64,000 nucleotides of DNA from Gammaproteobacteria bacterium. GTDB taxonomy: Bacteria > Pseudomonadota > Gammaproteobacteria > JACKNK01. The notes beneath the pieces are model-generated. The model saw only the letters and a program-made list of their open reading frames with translations. It ran no database searches and was not told the origin of the DNA. A program made the translations under genes and the position numbers. The DNA is taken from the NCBI GenBank assembly GCA_024234955.1, contig JACKNK010000006.1, positions 92,771 to 156,770 on the forward strand, in the 5' to 3' direction. The stretch's first letter is position 1; every line of letters starts with the position of its first letter. Shown piece by piece: positions 28,753 through 32,508 of the stretch.

Positions 28753-31700
28753 TCATAAGCCGAATACATCACCCAATGTATTGAAGCCTTTGGATATTGC
28801 TTTCCAGGCCTTGTTGAAGGCTTTGACGAACTGAATCTGGGCGAAAAATGCGGCGATTTCCTTGCCCACCACCCCAAAAGTGTGAAAGACCTCCGTACTG
28901 ACGAAGCCACCGGCGAGCAGGGTGTAACGGAGTGCATCGTGCGAAATGTTCAACACGGTGTTGAGCGCCACGCCCGCTTCTTTAACCGGCACGCCAATGT
29001 CTTTGAGGGCGGCGGCGACCCATTGCAACTTCAAGTTGGCTGCGCCGTCCCAGGCGACGTTTAGGAAGCCGGTGACGTTGACGGCGTCGAACCCGGCCGC
29101 ATGAAGCAGTTTGCCGACCGTGGTCAGTTGGAATTCGGTGAAGCCATAGAGGCCCTTGAGAACCATTCCAGTCTCTATGCCGTTGAACCCCAGAAGCTTC
29201 AGGGTGCTGGCAATCTGGTTCTGCGGGGACTGCAGGACGCTCTTCATCACCGCGCCGATGTCGTTGACGGGGAACCCGGCGGCCTTGAGCGCGGCAGGGA
29301 TACCCGTCGCATCGGCGAGCTGCGCTTGCAGGCCGGTCGCGACCTCCCAGGCGTTGTAACCACCTCTCTTGAGCACCAAGGCAAGGGCGTCGGTACCCAG
29401 GTTGTAGACCGGCCCCAACCCGGTCGCGGCGAACACGGAATCCAGTCCGGAATTCTTGAGCACGGTGAGTGCGGCGTCCGCAGGGAGCTGATAGAAGGTG
29501 TTCAAACCCTGAACGATGTCCTGGGCGCTGGCTTGCATGCGGAGCGCGGCCTTGACGGCAGATTCCGGGTCGGCGTTGTAGACACTCTTGGCGACGGACA
29601 GCGCGTTGACCGTCAATTCGACGGAGCCGCGTGCGACCGCATCCGCGAGGTCCTCGAACTTCCCCCAGACCATCTTGATGAGATCAAGACCGTGCACGGC
29701 AAGGTGGTTGAGGATCGCCGTATAGAGCGTATCGAAACCGGTGGGCGGTGTGCTCAGCGTCAGTGTCGGGAAAGAGATGTTGACACCGTAGAGGTTGAGG
29801 GCGCCGCTGAGCGACATCGAGAATTCGGCACCCACCGCGACGCTGATTGCCGTCTGCAAAGTGAAGGAGACGTTGATCAGATTCAGGTTGCCAAGCGGAG
29901 TGGGCAACTTGCAGTTGAGGAAAACGCCCATCGTGCCCGAGGCCGAATAACGCGTTGGCGAAATGCTCGCAACCAGGTTGGTATTGAGCGAGAGCCAGTT
30001 GTGACTGAACGTGAGCTTGATACCGTCATTGTTGCCTTGAAGGTCAACTCGCTCGGTGGCACCGAACAACTTCATTCGCGCCGACCCCGCCAACGTCGGC
30101 GTTCCCGACATGGCCAGGTTCGCCTGCAGGACCGGCCCCGGGTTGTTGGGCCCGACGCCTGTCAGTTCCACGATGCCCGCCAGGTCGATCGAGTCCATGT
30201 CCAGCTTCAGACGCAGTCCGTCGCTGGTGTCCGCGACCAGATAGACGCCCGCGCCCCAGCCCCACAGGTCGGAGCGGCCTTGCACGGTCACGCCCTCGTC
30301 GCGGAAATGGATGCCGCCGATTGAACAGGCGGTGGGCACGATGTTGACCTTCACGCCCTTGAGCGACAGGTCGAAGACCTGGTTGAACACGCCTTGTACC
30401 TGGGAAAGCGGGACATAGCGGAGCGGCGAGACCGCCTTGATGACGTCCGCGACTTTGAGCTTTTCGAAATCTGCGGCGATGACGAATTCGTCCGGGTCGG
30501 TGATGTCGACCTTGAAAGCCAGCATGCCGTCCACGGCACCGAGACGCATGTCGCCGACGATGCCGAAGCTGTCGAGCGCACCGGCGACGTTGACGCCGGC
30601 TTCGACGGCCATCCGTCGCAGCGATATGCCGGGTATGCCGAAGGGTTTGTCCCAGGCGCCCGAGTTCTGGACCTTTCCGGTGAGTTCGCCGTCCGGGTGT
30701 CGTCCGGTGCCGTTCATGGTGAACGAGCCGGTCAGGGATTCCGGTTCGAGCTTGAAGCCGCCCGTGAACACAAGGTGGCGGGTGCTGGTGCCTTCCTTCA
30801 GGGACACGACCAGGTCGCTGGACAGCGTGAATGCCGGTTCCGGAGGCGTCCCCTTCACCGAGATACCGAAGTCGGAGCGGGTCAGACGCAACTTGAAAGC
30901 GCTGGTGTCGACCAGGGTGATCTGACGTTTGGCCGCCATTTCGAACACGAATTCGGGCGTTCGGCCGGAGGCATCGATGGCCGCGTGCAGGGCCAGTTCC
31001 TTGAGCTGGAGGAGCTTGCCGACGAGGCGGACGATGTCATTGGTCGATTCGGAAATCTTGATGTTGGCGAAGGCGTTGAAGCCTTCGTTGATGCCGGAGT
31101 CCAGGCCCGGGTCGTATACCGTCTTGAGCGTCTGGACGATGATCTTAGGATCGGTCAGCGCCAGGGAGCCGATGATGGGAAGTTCGGTGATACCTGCCAG
31201 CGAGCGGGCGGGTTGAGCACCCGAAAGGACCTGGTTGAGGCTCAACGGGGTCGGCAGGGTCAGCGTGATCGCGCAGTTCGGTTTGCCCTTGTGATGGAAG
31301 AACGCGACTTCGATGCCGGTGTCGTCGGTGCTCAGCAACGTGGTCTTGCCGCTGAGGATCAGCGCGTGGTTGTCGGGTACGCCGAGTTCGACCTCACCCT
31401 TGTCGTTGATGGGGGTTTCTGCGCCGGCGACGCCTTCCATGCCGAGCGTACCGGGGCGGCTGGAGACCTGGACGCCGGTGACGGTGATCGCGGCGCCGAT
31501 GATCTTGCTGACGACGTCGCCGGCGAACGGTGTCAGCAGAGTCCGGTCCAGCGTGATCTGGTCGTTGCGTGTGGCGGCGGTCAATTGCGCCTTGAAGGTT
31601 GCCGTGGAGGCTGGCGTCGCGGTCGCTGCGTATGGGTTGTTGGTCACGCTGATCGTGCCGTCCCGGTTGGCGGTGGCCAGCAGGTTGCCTGCGGAGTTGA

Positions 31701-32508
31701 GCCCGATGCCGTTGATCTGCGCGCTGCCTACCTGGTCGTGCCAGGTCGTCCCGGTGTCGGCGGACAGGTGGACGGTTTTCGAGTCGTGTCCCGCTGCGGC
31801 GATTGTCTTCCCATCGGCGGAGCAGGCGATCCCGGCCCATTGCAGGGCGGACAGCTGGGGCGTCCATGTCCAGGTCGTACCGGTCTTCACACCGACTTGC
31901 AGCGTCTGCCTTTGCCCCGCGACGACGATGACGGTGCCGTCTTCGTTCGTGATGAGTTCGATCCAGGCGCCCTGTGGCGCGCCGGCCAGCGCCGAGAACG
32001 TGGCGCCGCCGTCGGTCGATACCCATATCCGGCCGGATCCGCCGGAGGAATAGAAACTGCCAGCCAGCACCGTATTGCCGTCGCCGCTCACCGCTGCGCA
32101 GTCCAGGTAGCTCATCCCGGACACCGAAGGGGCTTTCCAGGTGACGCCGTGATCCGTGGAAACGTATGCCTTATAGCTGCGAACGGCGGTGAGCACCCGC
32201 CCGTCGTGGCTGGCGGCGACCGCCTTCCACTCGCTGTTGTTCTTCAGGGCTTCGATCTCGGTCCAGGTGGTGCCGGCGTCGCTGGACAGGATGACCTTGC
32301 TGTCGGCGGCGGCGATCAGCCGGTTGCCATCTTCAGAGCCCGCAATGGTGCGCCAGGTGTTTGTGCCGCTTGTGCCGGCGCTCCAGGTGGCGCCGTTGTC
32401 GCCGGAGGTGTGGATGGCGCCATTTTTGGGTGCGGCGGCGAGTTTCCTGCCGTCCCTGGAGATAGTGATGGCCTGCCAGTCGAGCGCGTTGTCTGAATTG
32501 TCATCCAT
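28753..32508 (-). CDS. Giant orphan protein: N-terminal Asp-box (BNR) beta-propeller + long beta-rich region + C-terminal helical repeats
   Basis: Seven blades of 'W..I..S.DG..L.A......S.D.G.TW' ('SGDNGATW','SSDAGTTW','STDHGVTW','STDGGATF','SADTGTTW'). No signal peptide or TM. The remaining ~950 aa have no recognisable motif. Codon usage is visibly less GC-rich than the flanks. Confidence 0.8.
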   Translation of the reverse strand: MDDNSDNALDWQAITISRDGRKLAAAPKNGAIHTSGDNGATWSAGTSGTNTWRTIAGSEDGNRLIAAADSKVILSSDAGTTWTEIEALKNNSEWKAVAASHDGRVLTAVRSYKAYVSTDHGVTWKAPSVSGMSYLDCAAVSGDGNTVLAGSFYSSGGSGRIWVSTDGGATFSALAGAPQGAWIELITNEDGTVIVVAGQRQTLQVGVKTGTTWTWTPQLSALQWAGIACSADGKTIAAAGHDSKTVHLSADTGTTWHDQVGSAQINGIGLNSAGNLLATANRDGTISVTNNPYAATATPASTATFKAQLTAATRNDQITLDRTLLTPFAGDVVSKIIGAAITVTGVQVSSRPGTLGMEGVAGAETPINDKGEVELGVPDNHALILSGKTTLLSTDDTGIEVAFFHHKGKPNCAITLTLPTPLSLNQVLSGAQPARSLAGITELPIIGSLALTDPKIIVQTLKTVYDPGLDSGINEGFNAFANIKISESTNDIVRLVGKLLQLKELALHAAIDASGRTPEFVFEMAAKRQITLVDTSAFKLRLTRSDFGISVKGTPPEPAFTLSSDLVVSLKEGTSTRHLVFTGGFKLEPESLTGSFTMNGTGRHPDGELTGKVQNSGAWDKPFGIPGISLRRMAVEAGVNVAGALDSFGIVGDMRLGAVDGMLAFKVDITDPDEFVIAADFEKLKVADVIKAVSPLRYVPLSQVQGVFNQVFDLSLKGVKVNIVPTACSIGGIHFRDEGVTVQGRSDLWGWGAGVYLVADTSDGLRLKLDMDSIDLAGIVELTGVGPNNPGPVLQANLAMSGTPTLAGSARMKLFGATERVDLQGNNDGIKLTFSHNWLSLNTNLVASISPTRYSASGTMGVFLNCKLPTPLGNLNLINVSFTLQTAISVAVGAEFSMSLSGALNLYGVNISFPTLTLSTPPTGFDTLYTAILNHLAVHGLDLIKMVWGKFEDLADAVARGSVELTVNALSVAKSVYNADPESAVKAALRMQASAQDIVQGLNTFYQLPADAALTVLKNSGLDSVFAATGLGPVYNLGTDALALVLKRGGYNAWEVATGLQAQLADATGIPAALKAAGFPVNDIGAVMKSVLQSPQNQIASTLKLLGFNGIETGMVLKGLYGFTEFQLTTVGKLLHAAGFDAVNVTGFLNVAWDGAANLKLQWVAAALKDIGVPVKEAGVALNTVLNISHDALRYTLLAGGFVSTEVFHTFGVVGKEIAAFFAQIQFVKAFNKAWKAISKGFNTLGDVFGL

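What the first reader, a model, noticed from the sequence alone, without database searches (positions are those of the whole stretch)
28753..32508. 1251-aa monocistronic orphan: cytoplasmic-looking Asp-box beta-propeller fused to ~950 aa of unknown sequence
Seen: there is no signal peptide or TM. Residues ~10-300 form seven regular 'W..I..S.DG..L.A...S.D.G.TW' blades. A ~700-aa beta-strand-rich region with no motif I recognise and a C-terminal helical repeat array follow. The gene is convergent with its left neighbour and has its own AT-richer upstream region. It is visibly less GC-rich than the core genes and sits at the edge of the TA-rich island. Established: BNR/Asp-box propellers occur in sialidases, Ycf48-like assembly factors and Vps10/sortilin-type receptors, usually extracytoplasmic. 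Inference: this is a horizontally acquired large effector or sensor of novel architecture. Possible roles are toxin, abortive-infection sensor or lipid-bridging protein.
Basis: partly seen in the sequence, partly recalled or inferred. Interest (0 to 1): 0.65.

Follow-up and report, generated by a model that had tools for sequence, protein, structure and literature searches.

The report
Propeller-headed member of undescribed giant protein family
This intact 1251-residue gene joins an Asp-box beta-propeller to an ~950-residue body that defines a rare, never-described protein family scattered across bacterial phyla, whose other members carry sugar-binding heads instead, so it is most likely a target-binding, membrane-acting protein of unknown function rather than a true orphan.

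Summary
The ORF (28753-32508, minus strand) is real: unambiguous ATG, GAGGA ribosome site, GC3 0.82, and identical DNA in independent metagenome assemblies. Two claims fail. The gene is not GC-poor (0.625 against 0.609 for the genome). It is also not an orphan: an exhaustive HMMER search with residues 301-1251 found 316 cluster representatives, the best 37% identical over ~815 aa.

In those relatives the propeller is replaced by LamG, ricin-B, jacalin, beta/gamma-crystallin, pentaxin, tectonin or other lectin-type domains, or by nothing. About 93% lack a signal peptide. The shared body has no Pfam, NCBIfam, PHROG, PADLOC or PDB match. AlphaFold models it confidently as a ~29-strand amphipathic beta-meander plus an alpha-solenoid. 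The only Foldseek echoes are the ApoB100 beta-belt and membrane barrels, at low TM.

Distribution is patchy: Granulosicoccus, Saprospiraceae, cyanobacteria, Myxococcota, Desulfonema and Verrucomicrobiota. The gene is absent from the sister species, at a synteny break.

Best reading (about 0.4): a horizontally acquired, head-swappable, glycan- or surface-targeted protein with a membrane- or lipid-binding body. Function is untested.

The parts
28753..32508 (-). Complete ORF, 1251 aa plus stop
   Evidence: GC3 0.82. Identical DNA in two further metagenome assemblies.
32516..32520 (-). GAGGA ribosome-binding site, 8 nt upstream of the ATG
   Evidence: Read directly from the sequence. There is no in-frame alternative start upstream.
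32509..32790 (-). AT-richer upstream intergenic region (GC 0.546), presumed own promoter region
   Evidence: No sigma-70 consensus was found.
31624..32481 (-). Residues 10-295: seven-bladed BNR/Asp-box-type beta-propeller (five canonical SxDxGxTW)
   Evidence: repeats. (Sortilin-Vps10 32.6 bits against cut-off 33; BNR_2, WD40-type weak). (F510_1955 glycosylhydrolase, 2.6e-15, below cut-off). (25-31% identity to the propeller-only protein P0002).
31489..31623 (-). Residues 296-340: Ala/Thr/Pro linker and the N-terminal helix/strand ('QLTAATRNDQITLDRTLL') that begins the conserved module
   Evidence: Alignments to homologues start at residues ~307-310. Stand-alone family members begin with the same motif at residue 1.
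29749..31488 (-). Residues 341-920: all-beta domain, ~29 long (8-19-residue) antiparallel strands, one face hydrophobic and one polar
   Evidence: AF2 with alignment: pLDDT 82.3, pTM 0.68. Amphipathicity +1.78 against -0.96. Foldseek best hit ApoB100 beta-belt, E 7e-4, prob 0.96, TM 0.21.
30229..30741 (-). Residues 590-760: most conserved core of the family (FTMNGTG...W619-x-x-P-F-G-I-P-G...D668..D671-P-D673..V676...I723-V-P725...G750-W751)
   Evidence: Invariant columns of alignments A2/A3/A6. This is the only part shared with the distant coiled-coil subfamily.
28864..29736 (-). Residues 925-1215: alpha-solenoid of ~10-residue helix pairs; the last seven units are the 28-33-aa 'L-K-x-x-G-F/Y' repeats (anchors at residues 1017, 1046, 1074, 1103, 1135, 1168, 1197)
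   Evidence: AF2 pLDDT ~90. Repeat spacing. The same repeat occurs in homologues with an exact 29-aa period and in exported proteins of other kinds.
28756..28863 (-). Residues 1216-1251: amphipathic C-terminal helix and tail ending in a hydrophobic residue (homologues mostly end in W-F, W-L or L-F)

Best explanation
The gene encodes a three-part protein made without a Sec/Tat signal.

Shown: residues ~305-1251 are a conserved two-domain body. It consists of a large amphipathic beta-meander followed by an alpha-solenoid of 29-aa two-helix repeats and an amphipathic tail. This body defines a rare, undescribed family spread by horizontal transfer among bacteria of several phyla, many of them filamentous, gliding or surface-associated (my own knowledge of these taxa, not tested here).

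Shown: the N-terminal position is a swappable head. In relatives it is a lectin-type domain (LamG, ricin-B, jacalin, fascin-like trefoil, beta/gamma-crystallin, pentaxin, tectonin propeller, ILEI) or is absent. In this gene alone it is an Asp-box propeller.

Inferred: the head binds a surface glycan or other exposed ligand of a target cell or substrate. The body then engages a membrane or lipid surface through its continuous hydrophobic sheet face and amphipathic helices. That makes the protein a head-guided, membrane-active effector (toxin-like, possibly pore-forming or lipid-sequestering) that leaves the producer by a non-Sec route such as lysis, a C-terminal signal or an unknown exporter.

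Inferred: it arrived in this genome by horizontal transfer at a rearrangement-prone spot next to a toxin-antitoxin island.
For: Family and modularity:
- phmmer over 1.84 billion representatives gives 316 hits at E<=1e-3 and 45 at E<=1e-30. The module lies in the C-terminal part of 1000-3200-aa proteins.
- Pfam tallies of the N-termini show lectin-type domains.
- All 50 invariant columns of a 19-sequence alignment are, by construction, kept in this protein.

Extracellular logic:
- The lectin-type heads are typical of extracellular recognition (established knowledge of these Pfam families).
- The 29-aa repeat recurs in exported proteins. These are the region after the RHS core of a 2706-aa RHS protein, the periplasmic part of a TrbI/VirB10-type protein, and signal-peptide proteins carrying CARDB.

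Membrane or lipid logic:
- The ~29 strands have one L/V/F/I face and one S/K/T/G/N/D face.
- The best Foldseek matches are the lipid-wrapping ApoB100 beta-belt (prob 0.96) and Tom40/VDAC/TonB-dependent barrels.
- Some homologues' helical tails weakly match ApoLp-III/apolipoprotein models.

HGT:
-.

No Sec signal:
- About 108 of 116 full-length members lack one, by hydropathy heuristic.
Against: - No function has been tested for any member, and every source calls them hypothetical or 'LamG domain-containing'.
- Foldseek TM-scores are low (0.1-0.28), so the ApoB/barrel likeness is local beta-meander likeness, not a shared fold.
- An amphipathic sheet is equally expected in a soluble beta-sandwich or taco. 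Model coordinates could not be inspected.
- No secretion system, immunity gene or other conserved partner is linked across 14 loci.
- The only recurrent partner, a small Nif11-like ORF, is absent from this genome.
- The Asp-box propeller's ligand is unknown, and its Pfam scores are below gathering cut-offs.
- This protein sits on a very long branch (1.82 against a median of 0.21), so it may have diverged in function.
- No expression data were available.
Confidence: 0.4

Rival explanations
1. Non-toxic extracellular or surface structural protein or adhesin. The lectin or propeller head ties cells to polysaccharide (sheath, biofilm matrix, algal or host surface), and the beta/alpha body is a scaffold.
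For: The lectin heads are the same as for the main explanation. Carriers are largely filamentous, gliding or surface- or alga-associated bacteria (the lifestyle is my own knowledge). No immunity gene is linked. Beta/gamma-crystallin heads recall Myxococcus spore-coat protein S (my own knowledge).
Against: No Sec/Tat signal, sorting motif or anchor in ~93% of members. No linkage to export or assembly genes. A long continuous hydrophobic sheet face is unusual for a matrix protein.
Confidence: 0.2
2. Cytoplasmic single-gene anti-phage (abortive-infection) protein. The variable head senses a phage component and the amphipathic body disrupts the inner membrane from within.
For: No signal peptide. 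Variable sensor-like N-terminus on a constant body. Patchy distribution. One member carries a phage tail collar domain. One distant member sits beside patatin and ParE.
Against: No PADLOC hit. Neighbour tallies over 14 loci show no defence genes. The head domains are classic extracellular glycan binders, and crystallin and pentaxin types are Ca-dependent (established knowledge). The shared repeat occurs in exported proteins.
Confidence: 0.13
3. Intracellular coat of a hydrophobic inclusion, or a lipid carrier (apolipoprotein-like). The beta-belt and amphipathic helices wrap lipid, PHA or sulfur globules.
For: The top Foldseek hit is the ApoB100 belt. Homologues give weak ApoLp-III/apolipoprotein matches. 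No signal peptide. Earlier notes call the host a sulfur oxidiser.
Against: TM is only 0.21. There is no vitellogenin-N/LLTP domain. Lectin heads make little sense in the cytoplasm. The family is rare and patchy rather than following any storage metabolism.
Confidence: 0.07
4. Bridge-like (AsmA/TamB/YhdP-type) lipid transporter across the envelope.
For: Long amphipathic beta strands.
Against: No N-terminal TM anchor or signal. hhalign of the family profile against a TamB alignment gives probability 0.3%. The genome already has a canonical 1271-aa TamB. No AsmA/TamB/VPS13-type structure appears among the Foldseek hits.
Confidence: 0.03
5. Functionless or decaying acquired ORF.
For: Very long branch. 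The C-terminal repeats are degenerate compared with the exact 29-aa period of homologues. No partner ORF. No expression data.
Against: The frame is uninterrupted over 3.7 kb with host-like GC3 of 0.82. All family-invariant residues are present. AF2 confidence is high. A ribosome site is present.
Confidence: 0.05

Closest known systems
Chimerolectin / lectin-guided bacterial toxins (e.g. Streptomyces umbrella toxin particles, Nature 2024, PMC11062931; ricin-B-headed cytotoxins)
   Same: Diversified, exchangeable lectin modules are attached to a constant effector scaffold. Helical repeat arrays are present. Distribution suggests inter-organismal conflict.
   Different: Umbrella toxins are multi-protein, TAT-exported, use 43-44-aa ALF repeats and carry small enzymatic C-terminal toxin domains (PMC11062931). 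Here there is one polypeptide, no signal, 29-aa repeats, no enzymatic domain, and no sequence or fold match.
ApoB100 beta-belt / large lipid transfer proteins (PDB 9e9r, 9ea7)
   Same: A very long uninterrupted antiparallel amphipathic beta-meander followed or accompanied by amphipathic helices. It is the best Foldseek match (prob 0.96).
   Different: TM-score is 0.21 and identity 10%. There is no vitellogenin-N/LLTP domain. One is a bacterial protein without a signal peptide, the other a secreted animal lipoprotein.
BNR/Asp-box propellers (Sortilin-Vps10, GH74 xyloglucanase 2cn2, Ycf48-like, F510_1955 family)
   Same: Seven ~41-aa blades with the SxDxGxTW motif. Weak profile hits.
   Different: All scores are below the curated cut-offs. 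There is no FRIP motif. It is fused to a ~950-aa body, a combination found in no other sequence retrieved.
AsmA/TamB bridge-like lipid transporters
   Same: A large beta-rich protein with amphipathic strands.
   Different: No membrane anchor, no profile similarity and no structural hit.
RHS/YD polymorphic toxins
   Same: The 29-aa 'LK.AGY' repeat array also follows the RHS core of P0164.
   Different: The polarity is opposite: here the variable part is N-terminal and the constant part C-terminal. There are no RHS repeats, no PAAR/VgrG-type trafficking domain and no immunity gene.

Membership tests
BNR/Asp-box beta-propeller superfamily | Repeated S-x-D-x-G-x-T-W motif at blade spacing (4 or more copies) | tested here: met
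   Five exact motifs at residues 35, 75, 117, 164 and 249, plus one degenerate, in seven ~41-aa repeats.
BNR/Asp-box beta-propeller superfamily | Profile match above the curated threshold to a BNR-type Pfam/NCBIfam model | tested here: inconclusive
   Sortilin-Vps10 32.6 bits against cut-off 33. BNR_2 18.3 against 31.4. NF045728 56.4 against 175.
Sialidase (GH33) | FRIP motif / catalytic arginine triad | tested here: not met
   No [FYW]R[IVL]P motif anywhere in the protein.
AsmA/TamB-like bridge lipid transporters | N-terminal membrane anchor | tested here: not met
   No hydrophobic N-terminus. The maximum 19-residue hydropathy is 1.46.
AsmA/TamB-like bridge lipid transporters | Profile or fold similarity to TamB/AsmA | tested here: not met
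   hhalign probability 0.3% against a 6-sequence TamB alignment. Absent from the Foldseek hits.
ApoB/vitellogenin large lipid transfer proteins | N-terminal vitellogenin-N/LLTP domain | tested here: not met
   No Pfam hit.
ApoB/vitellogenin large lipid transfer proteins | Amphipathic beta-belt | tested here: inconclusive
   Foldseek E 7e-4 and prob 0.96, but TM 0.21. The strands are amphipathic.
Outer-membrane beta-barrel proteins | Signal peptide, closed barrel and aromatic girdles | tested here: not met
   No signal. TM to barrels is 0.28 or less. Only 1 Tyr and 2 Trp lie on the hydrophobic strand faces.
RTX / classical T1SS substrates | GGxGxD nonapeptide repeats | tested here: not met
   None found.
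Polymorphic toxin systems (RHS/CDI/umbrella) | Conserved N-terminal trafficking part, variable C-terminal toxin and adjacent immunity gene | tested here: not met
   The polarity is reversed. No conserved downstream gene in the window. The repeat period is 29 aa against 43-44 aa for ALF.
Known anti-phage defence systems | Match to a PADLOC model or residence in defence islands across homologues | tested here: not met
   PADLOC gives 0 families. The neighbour tally shows no defence families.
New family defined here (lectin-head / beta-meander / 29-aa solenoid proteins) | Core motif W-x-x-P-F-G-I-P-G ... D-x-N-D-P-D-x-F-V ... I-V-P-x-x-T-x-I-G ... G-W within an ~600-aa beta domain, followed by helical repeats | tested here: met
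   E = 9.9e-177 to P0003 over residues ~307-1122. Invariant columns are present.

The most novel reading that the evidence does not exclude
The body (beta-meander plus 29-aa solenoid) is a new kind of membrane- or lipid-engaging machine. It would be a bacterial, Sec-independent 'beta-belt' effector that is aimed by interchangeable lectin or propeller heads and that wraps, extracts or perforates target-membrane lipid. That would make it a mechanistic class of protein toxin, or lipid-capturing protein, distinct from known alpha- and beta-pore formers and from AB enzymes.
Probability: 0.2. Interest if true: 0.8.

Novelty: categorically new. Interest (0 to 1): 0.6.

Why it matters
If the reading holds, this gene is an entry point to a protein family of at least a few hundred sequence clusters that no database describes. 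The family combines a confidently predicted but unmatched fold with a clear modular logic of swappable recognition heads on a constant amphipathic body.

Such architecture is the hallmark of targeting effectors. The family could therefore reveal a new way bacteria attack, adhere to or harvest lipid from other cells, such as algae, protists or competing bacteria. It could also reveal a new export route for large signal-less proteins. Cultured carriers exist (Granulosicoccus sp. 3-233, Calothrix NIES-4101, Desulfonema magnum 4be13), so the question is directly testable.

If instead the family is a plain structural lectin, the finding still supplies a new domain family and a new 29-aa repeat for annotation.

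Tried and rejected
- Word-indexed homologue search with the full protein found only a propeller-only protein.
- Searches of Pfam, NCBIfam, PHROGs and PADLOC, and of PDB by sequence (single protein and profile), gave nothing for residues 300-1251.
- Foldseek of the 951-residue model and of the beta domain alone against PDB and BFVD gave no match with TM above 0.3.
- The TamB/AsmA hypothesis was rejected by hhalign.
- Internal duplication of the beta domain was not supported by block-against-block hhalign.
- Conserved neighbourhood: an all-against-all comparison of neighbour ORFs and a Pfam tally of 116 neighbour ORFs from 14 loci showed only lineage-local partners. These were a Nif11-like small ORF, a methyltransferase, an RTX protein and WD40 proteins.
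- There are no copies on viral contigs or in phage records, and only one distant copy on a Nostoc megaplasmid, which is unannotated.
- The 24-nt cassette motif of the neighbouring island does not flank this gene.
- The ALF repeats of umbrella toxins have a different period and gave no structural hit.
- Selection could not be estimated from population variants, because the other assemblies are identical in DNA.
- The consensus scan for promoters and terminators was uninformative.
- Model coordinates are not exposed, so I could not tell whether the sheet is open, a taco, a sandwich or a barrel.

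
Full report
**1. The observation**

The window holds one uninterrupted frame at 28753..32508 on the minus strand, 1251 codons. The start is fixed. The in-frame stop lies 15 codons upstream with no ATG/GTG/TTG between, and GAGGA lies 8 nt before the ATG.

Third-position GC is 0.82, as in surrounding genes (0.74-0.83). 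The same DNA, base for base, occurs in independent metagenome assemblies with the same neighbours.

The gene's GC is 0.625, against 0.619 for the window and 0.609 for the 3.29-Mb genome. Only the 280-bp upstream spacer is AT-richer, at 0.546.

Both neighbours are on the other strand: the RimK-like ATP-grasp gene at 27833-28615 and a CopG/BrnA-like antitoxin at 32790-33098. The gene therefore stands alone by geometry.

**2. Anatomy**

- There is no N-terminal hydrophobic segment and no TM-grade stretch. The maximum 19-residue hydropathy is 1.46.
- Residues 11-300 are seven ~41-residue repeats. Five carry exact SxDxGxTW/F Asp-boxes.
- Profile hits to Sortilin-Vps10, BNR_2 and an NCBIfam BNR-type glycosylhydrolase family are real but below the curated cut-offs.
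- There is no FRIP motif.
- AlphaFold2 on residues 301-1251 with a 25-sequence alignment gave pLDDT 81.5. On residues 330-925 with 41 sequences it gave pLDDT 82.3 and pTM 0.68.
- The models show a short helical lead-in, then ~29 antiparallel strands of 8-19 residues joined mostly as consecutive hairpins (about residues 340-920). They continue with an alpha-solenoid of ~10-residue helix pairs (about residues 925-1215) and a terminal amphipathic helix.
- In the strands, one residue parity is L/V/F/I/A-rich (mean hydropathy +1.78). The other is S/K/T/G/N/D-rich (mean -0.96).
- The last seven solenoid units are the 'L-K-x-x-G-F/Y' repeats, spaced 28-33 residues apart.

**3. Not an orphan**

The word-indexed search and 40 related genomes gave nothing beyond propeller-only matches. 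An exhaustive phmmer search with residues 301-1251 against 1.84 billion cluster representatives gave 316 hits at E<=1e-3 and 45 at E<=1e-30. The best was P0003, 37% identical over query residues 7-822.

In these proteins the shared module lies in the C-terminal part, and the N-terminus differs. The domains found were:

- Laminin_G_3 (most common, up to six copies)
- ricin-B, jacalin and a fascin/DUF7910 trefoil
- beta/gamma-crystallin, ILEI and pentaxin
- a tectonin propeller
- sialidase and trans-sialidase lectin domains
- a phage tail collar
- a Pro/Arg-rich tract, or nothing at all

None of ~170 retrieved members has Asp-boxes, so the propeller-body fusion is unique to this gene.

A more distant subfamily shares only the core (about residues 610-830) and ends in a coiled coil. 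About 108 of 116 full-length members lack any signal-like N-terminus. Sources name them only 'hypothetical' or 'LamG domain-containing'.

**4. What the body resembles**

There is no Pfam, NCBIfam, PHROG or PADLOC model, and no PDB sequence match even with a family profile.

Foldseek gave no match with TM above 0.3. For the beta domain alone, the top hits are the ApoB100 beta-belt (E 7e-4, prob 0.96, TM 0.21). Tom40/VDAC, TonB-dependent receptors and other large barrels follow. I read this as likeness of a long antiparallel meander, not homology.

The AsmA/TamB idea fails. There is no anchor, and hhalign against a TamB alignment gives 0.3%. No internal duplication was detected.

**5. The helical repeat elsewhere**

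The same 29-aa repeat occurs in several exported proteins:

- After the RHS core and a hydrophobic glycine-rich segment of a 2706-aa RHS protein.
- In the periplasmic part of a TM-anchored TrbI/VirB10-type protein.
- In two signal-peptide proteins ending in CARDB.

Wherever its location can be inferred, it is outside the cytoplasm.

**6. Distribution and context**

Genome hits lie in these groups:

- Granulosicoccus (3 genomes)
- Saprospiraceae, Spirosoma and Flavihumibacter
- marine and filamentous cyanobacteria
- Anaerolineales
- Pedosphaerales
- Desulfonema magnum
- Myxococcales

The tree mixes phyla, and the window's protein sits alone on a long branch. Only 1 of 401 genomes of the class has the full module.

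The sister species keeps the ATP-grasp neighbour at 75% identity. It then continues with genes that lie on another contig of this genome, so the gene sits exactly at a synteny break.

Neighbourhoods of homologues share nothing general. Lineage-local partners are:

- a small Nif11-like ORF directly downstream in five loci, absent from this genome
- a methyltransferase and an RTX protein in marine cyanobacteria
- WD40 proteins in Calothrix

There are no copies on viral contigs or in phages.

**7. Interpretation**

Shown: this is a real, intact, horizontally mobile gene for a member of an undescribed family. The family has a constant amphipathic beta/alpha body and an exchangeable recognition head.

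Inferred: the heads are classic extracellular glycan binders, and the shared repeat lives in exported proteins. The family therefore most probably acts outside the producer on a glycan-bearing surface, with the body engaging membrane or lipid. Export must be non-classical.

I put this at about 0.4. Rivals are:

- a non-toxic adhesin or scaffold (0.2)
- a cytoplasmic abortive-infection effector (0.13)
- an inclusion or lipid coat (0.07)
- a decaying ORF (0.05)
- an AsmA-like bridge (0.03)

The conceptually closest described systems are lectin-diversified toxins such as Streptomyces umbrella particles (PMC11062931). Every defining feature of those systems that I could test is not met.

**8. Verdict**

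'Orphan' and 'GC-poor' are not. The interpretation (acquired effector of novel architecture) is partly supported, and its lipid-bridge and Abi variants are disfavoured.

The protein family itself appears new. Its function is open and experimentally approachable in cultured carriers.

Noticed in passing
P0164 residues ~2340-2690; L037:949-3024; L035:1006-3027; L036:127-2298: The 29-aa 'LK.AGY....V..AL' two-helix repeat is a mobile module without a Pfam model. It occurs after the RHS core of an RHS protein, in a TrbI/VirB10 (DotG-like) protein, and in signal-peptide proteins with C-terminal CARDB.
   Followed up: partly
L019:13006-13314, L008:5989-6300, L020:9727-10038, L012:12581-12901, L046:6045-6290: A conserved ~80-105-aa Nif11-like ORF lies directly downstream of family members in Granulosicoccus, Phormidesmis and a metagenome contig. 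It has no counterpart in the window's genome.
   Followed up: partly
L048:610-15708: A distant family member (1719 aa) sits in a co-directional block of seven Pfam-less genes. Three of them share an N-terminal 'YYGD...FYI.P' domain, and two share the member's C-terminal ~450 aa. This may be a dedicated multi-protein system.
   Followed up: partly
L049:2573-9460: Another distant member (1465 aa) is followed by two small ORFs and a patatin-like phospholipase gene, with a ParE toxin gene upstream.
   Followed up: no
P0159-P0162 (marine cyanobacterial members): In place of a lectin head, these ~970-aa members start with a Pro/Arg-rich low-complexity tract (RPRPKPFRPRP...).
   Followed up: no
window 27833-28615 vs G001:C13:664-1425: Synteny with the sister species ends right after the RimK-like ATP-grasp gene. 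The sister contig continues with genes that lie on contig C1 of this genome, so this is a rearrangement or insertion boundary.
   Followed up: yes
window 32837-32890: A hexanucleotide microsatellite (GCCAGA on the + strand, ~8-9 units) lies about 330 bp upstream of the gene's start codon, inside or next to the BrnA/CopG-like antitoxin cassette.
   Followed up: no
window 43372-47233: Two minus-strand ORFs (968 and 316 aa) have GC3 of 0.90-0.92, well above the 0.74-0.83 of the other genes. They are compositionally distinct and possibly foreign.
   Followed up: no
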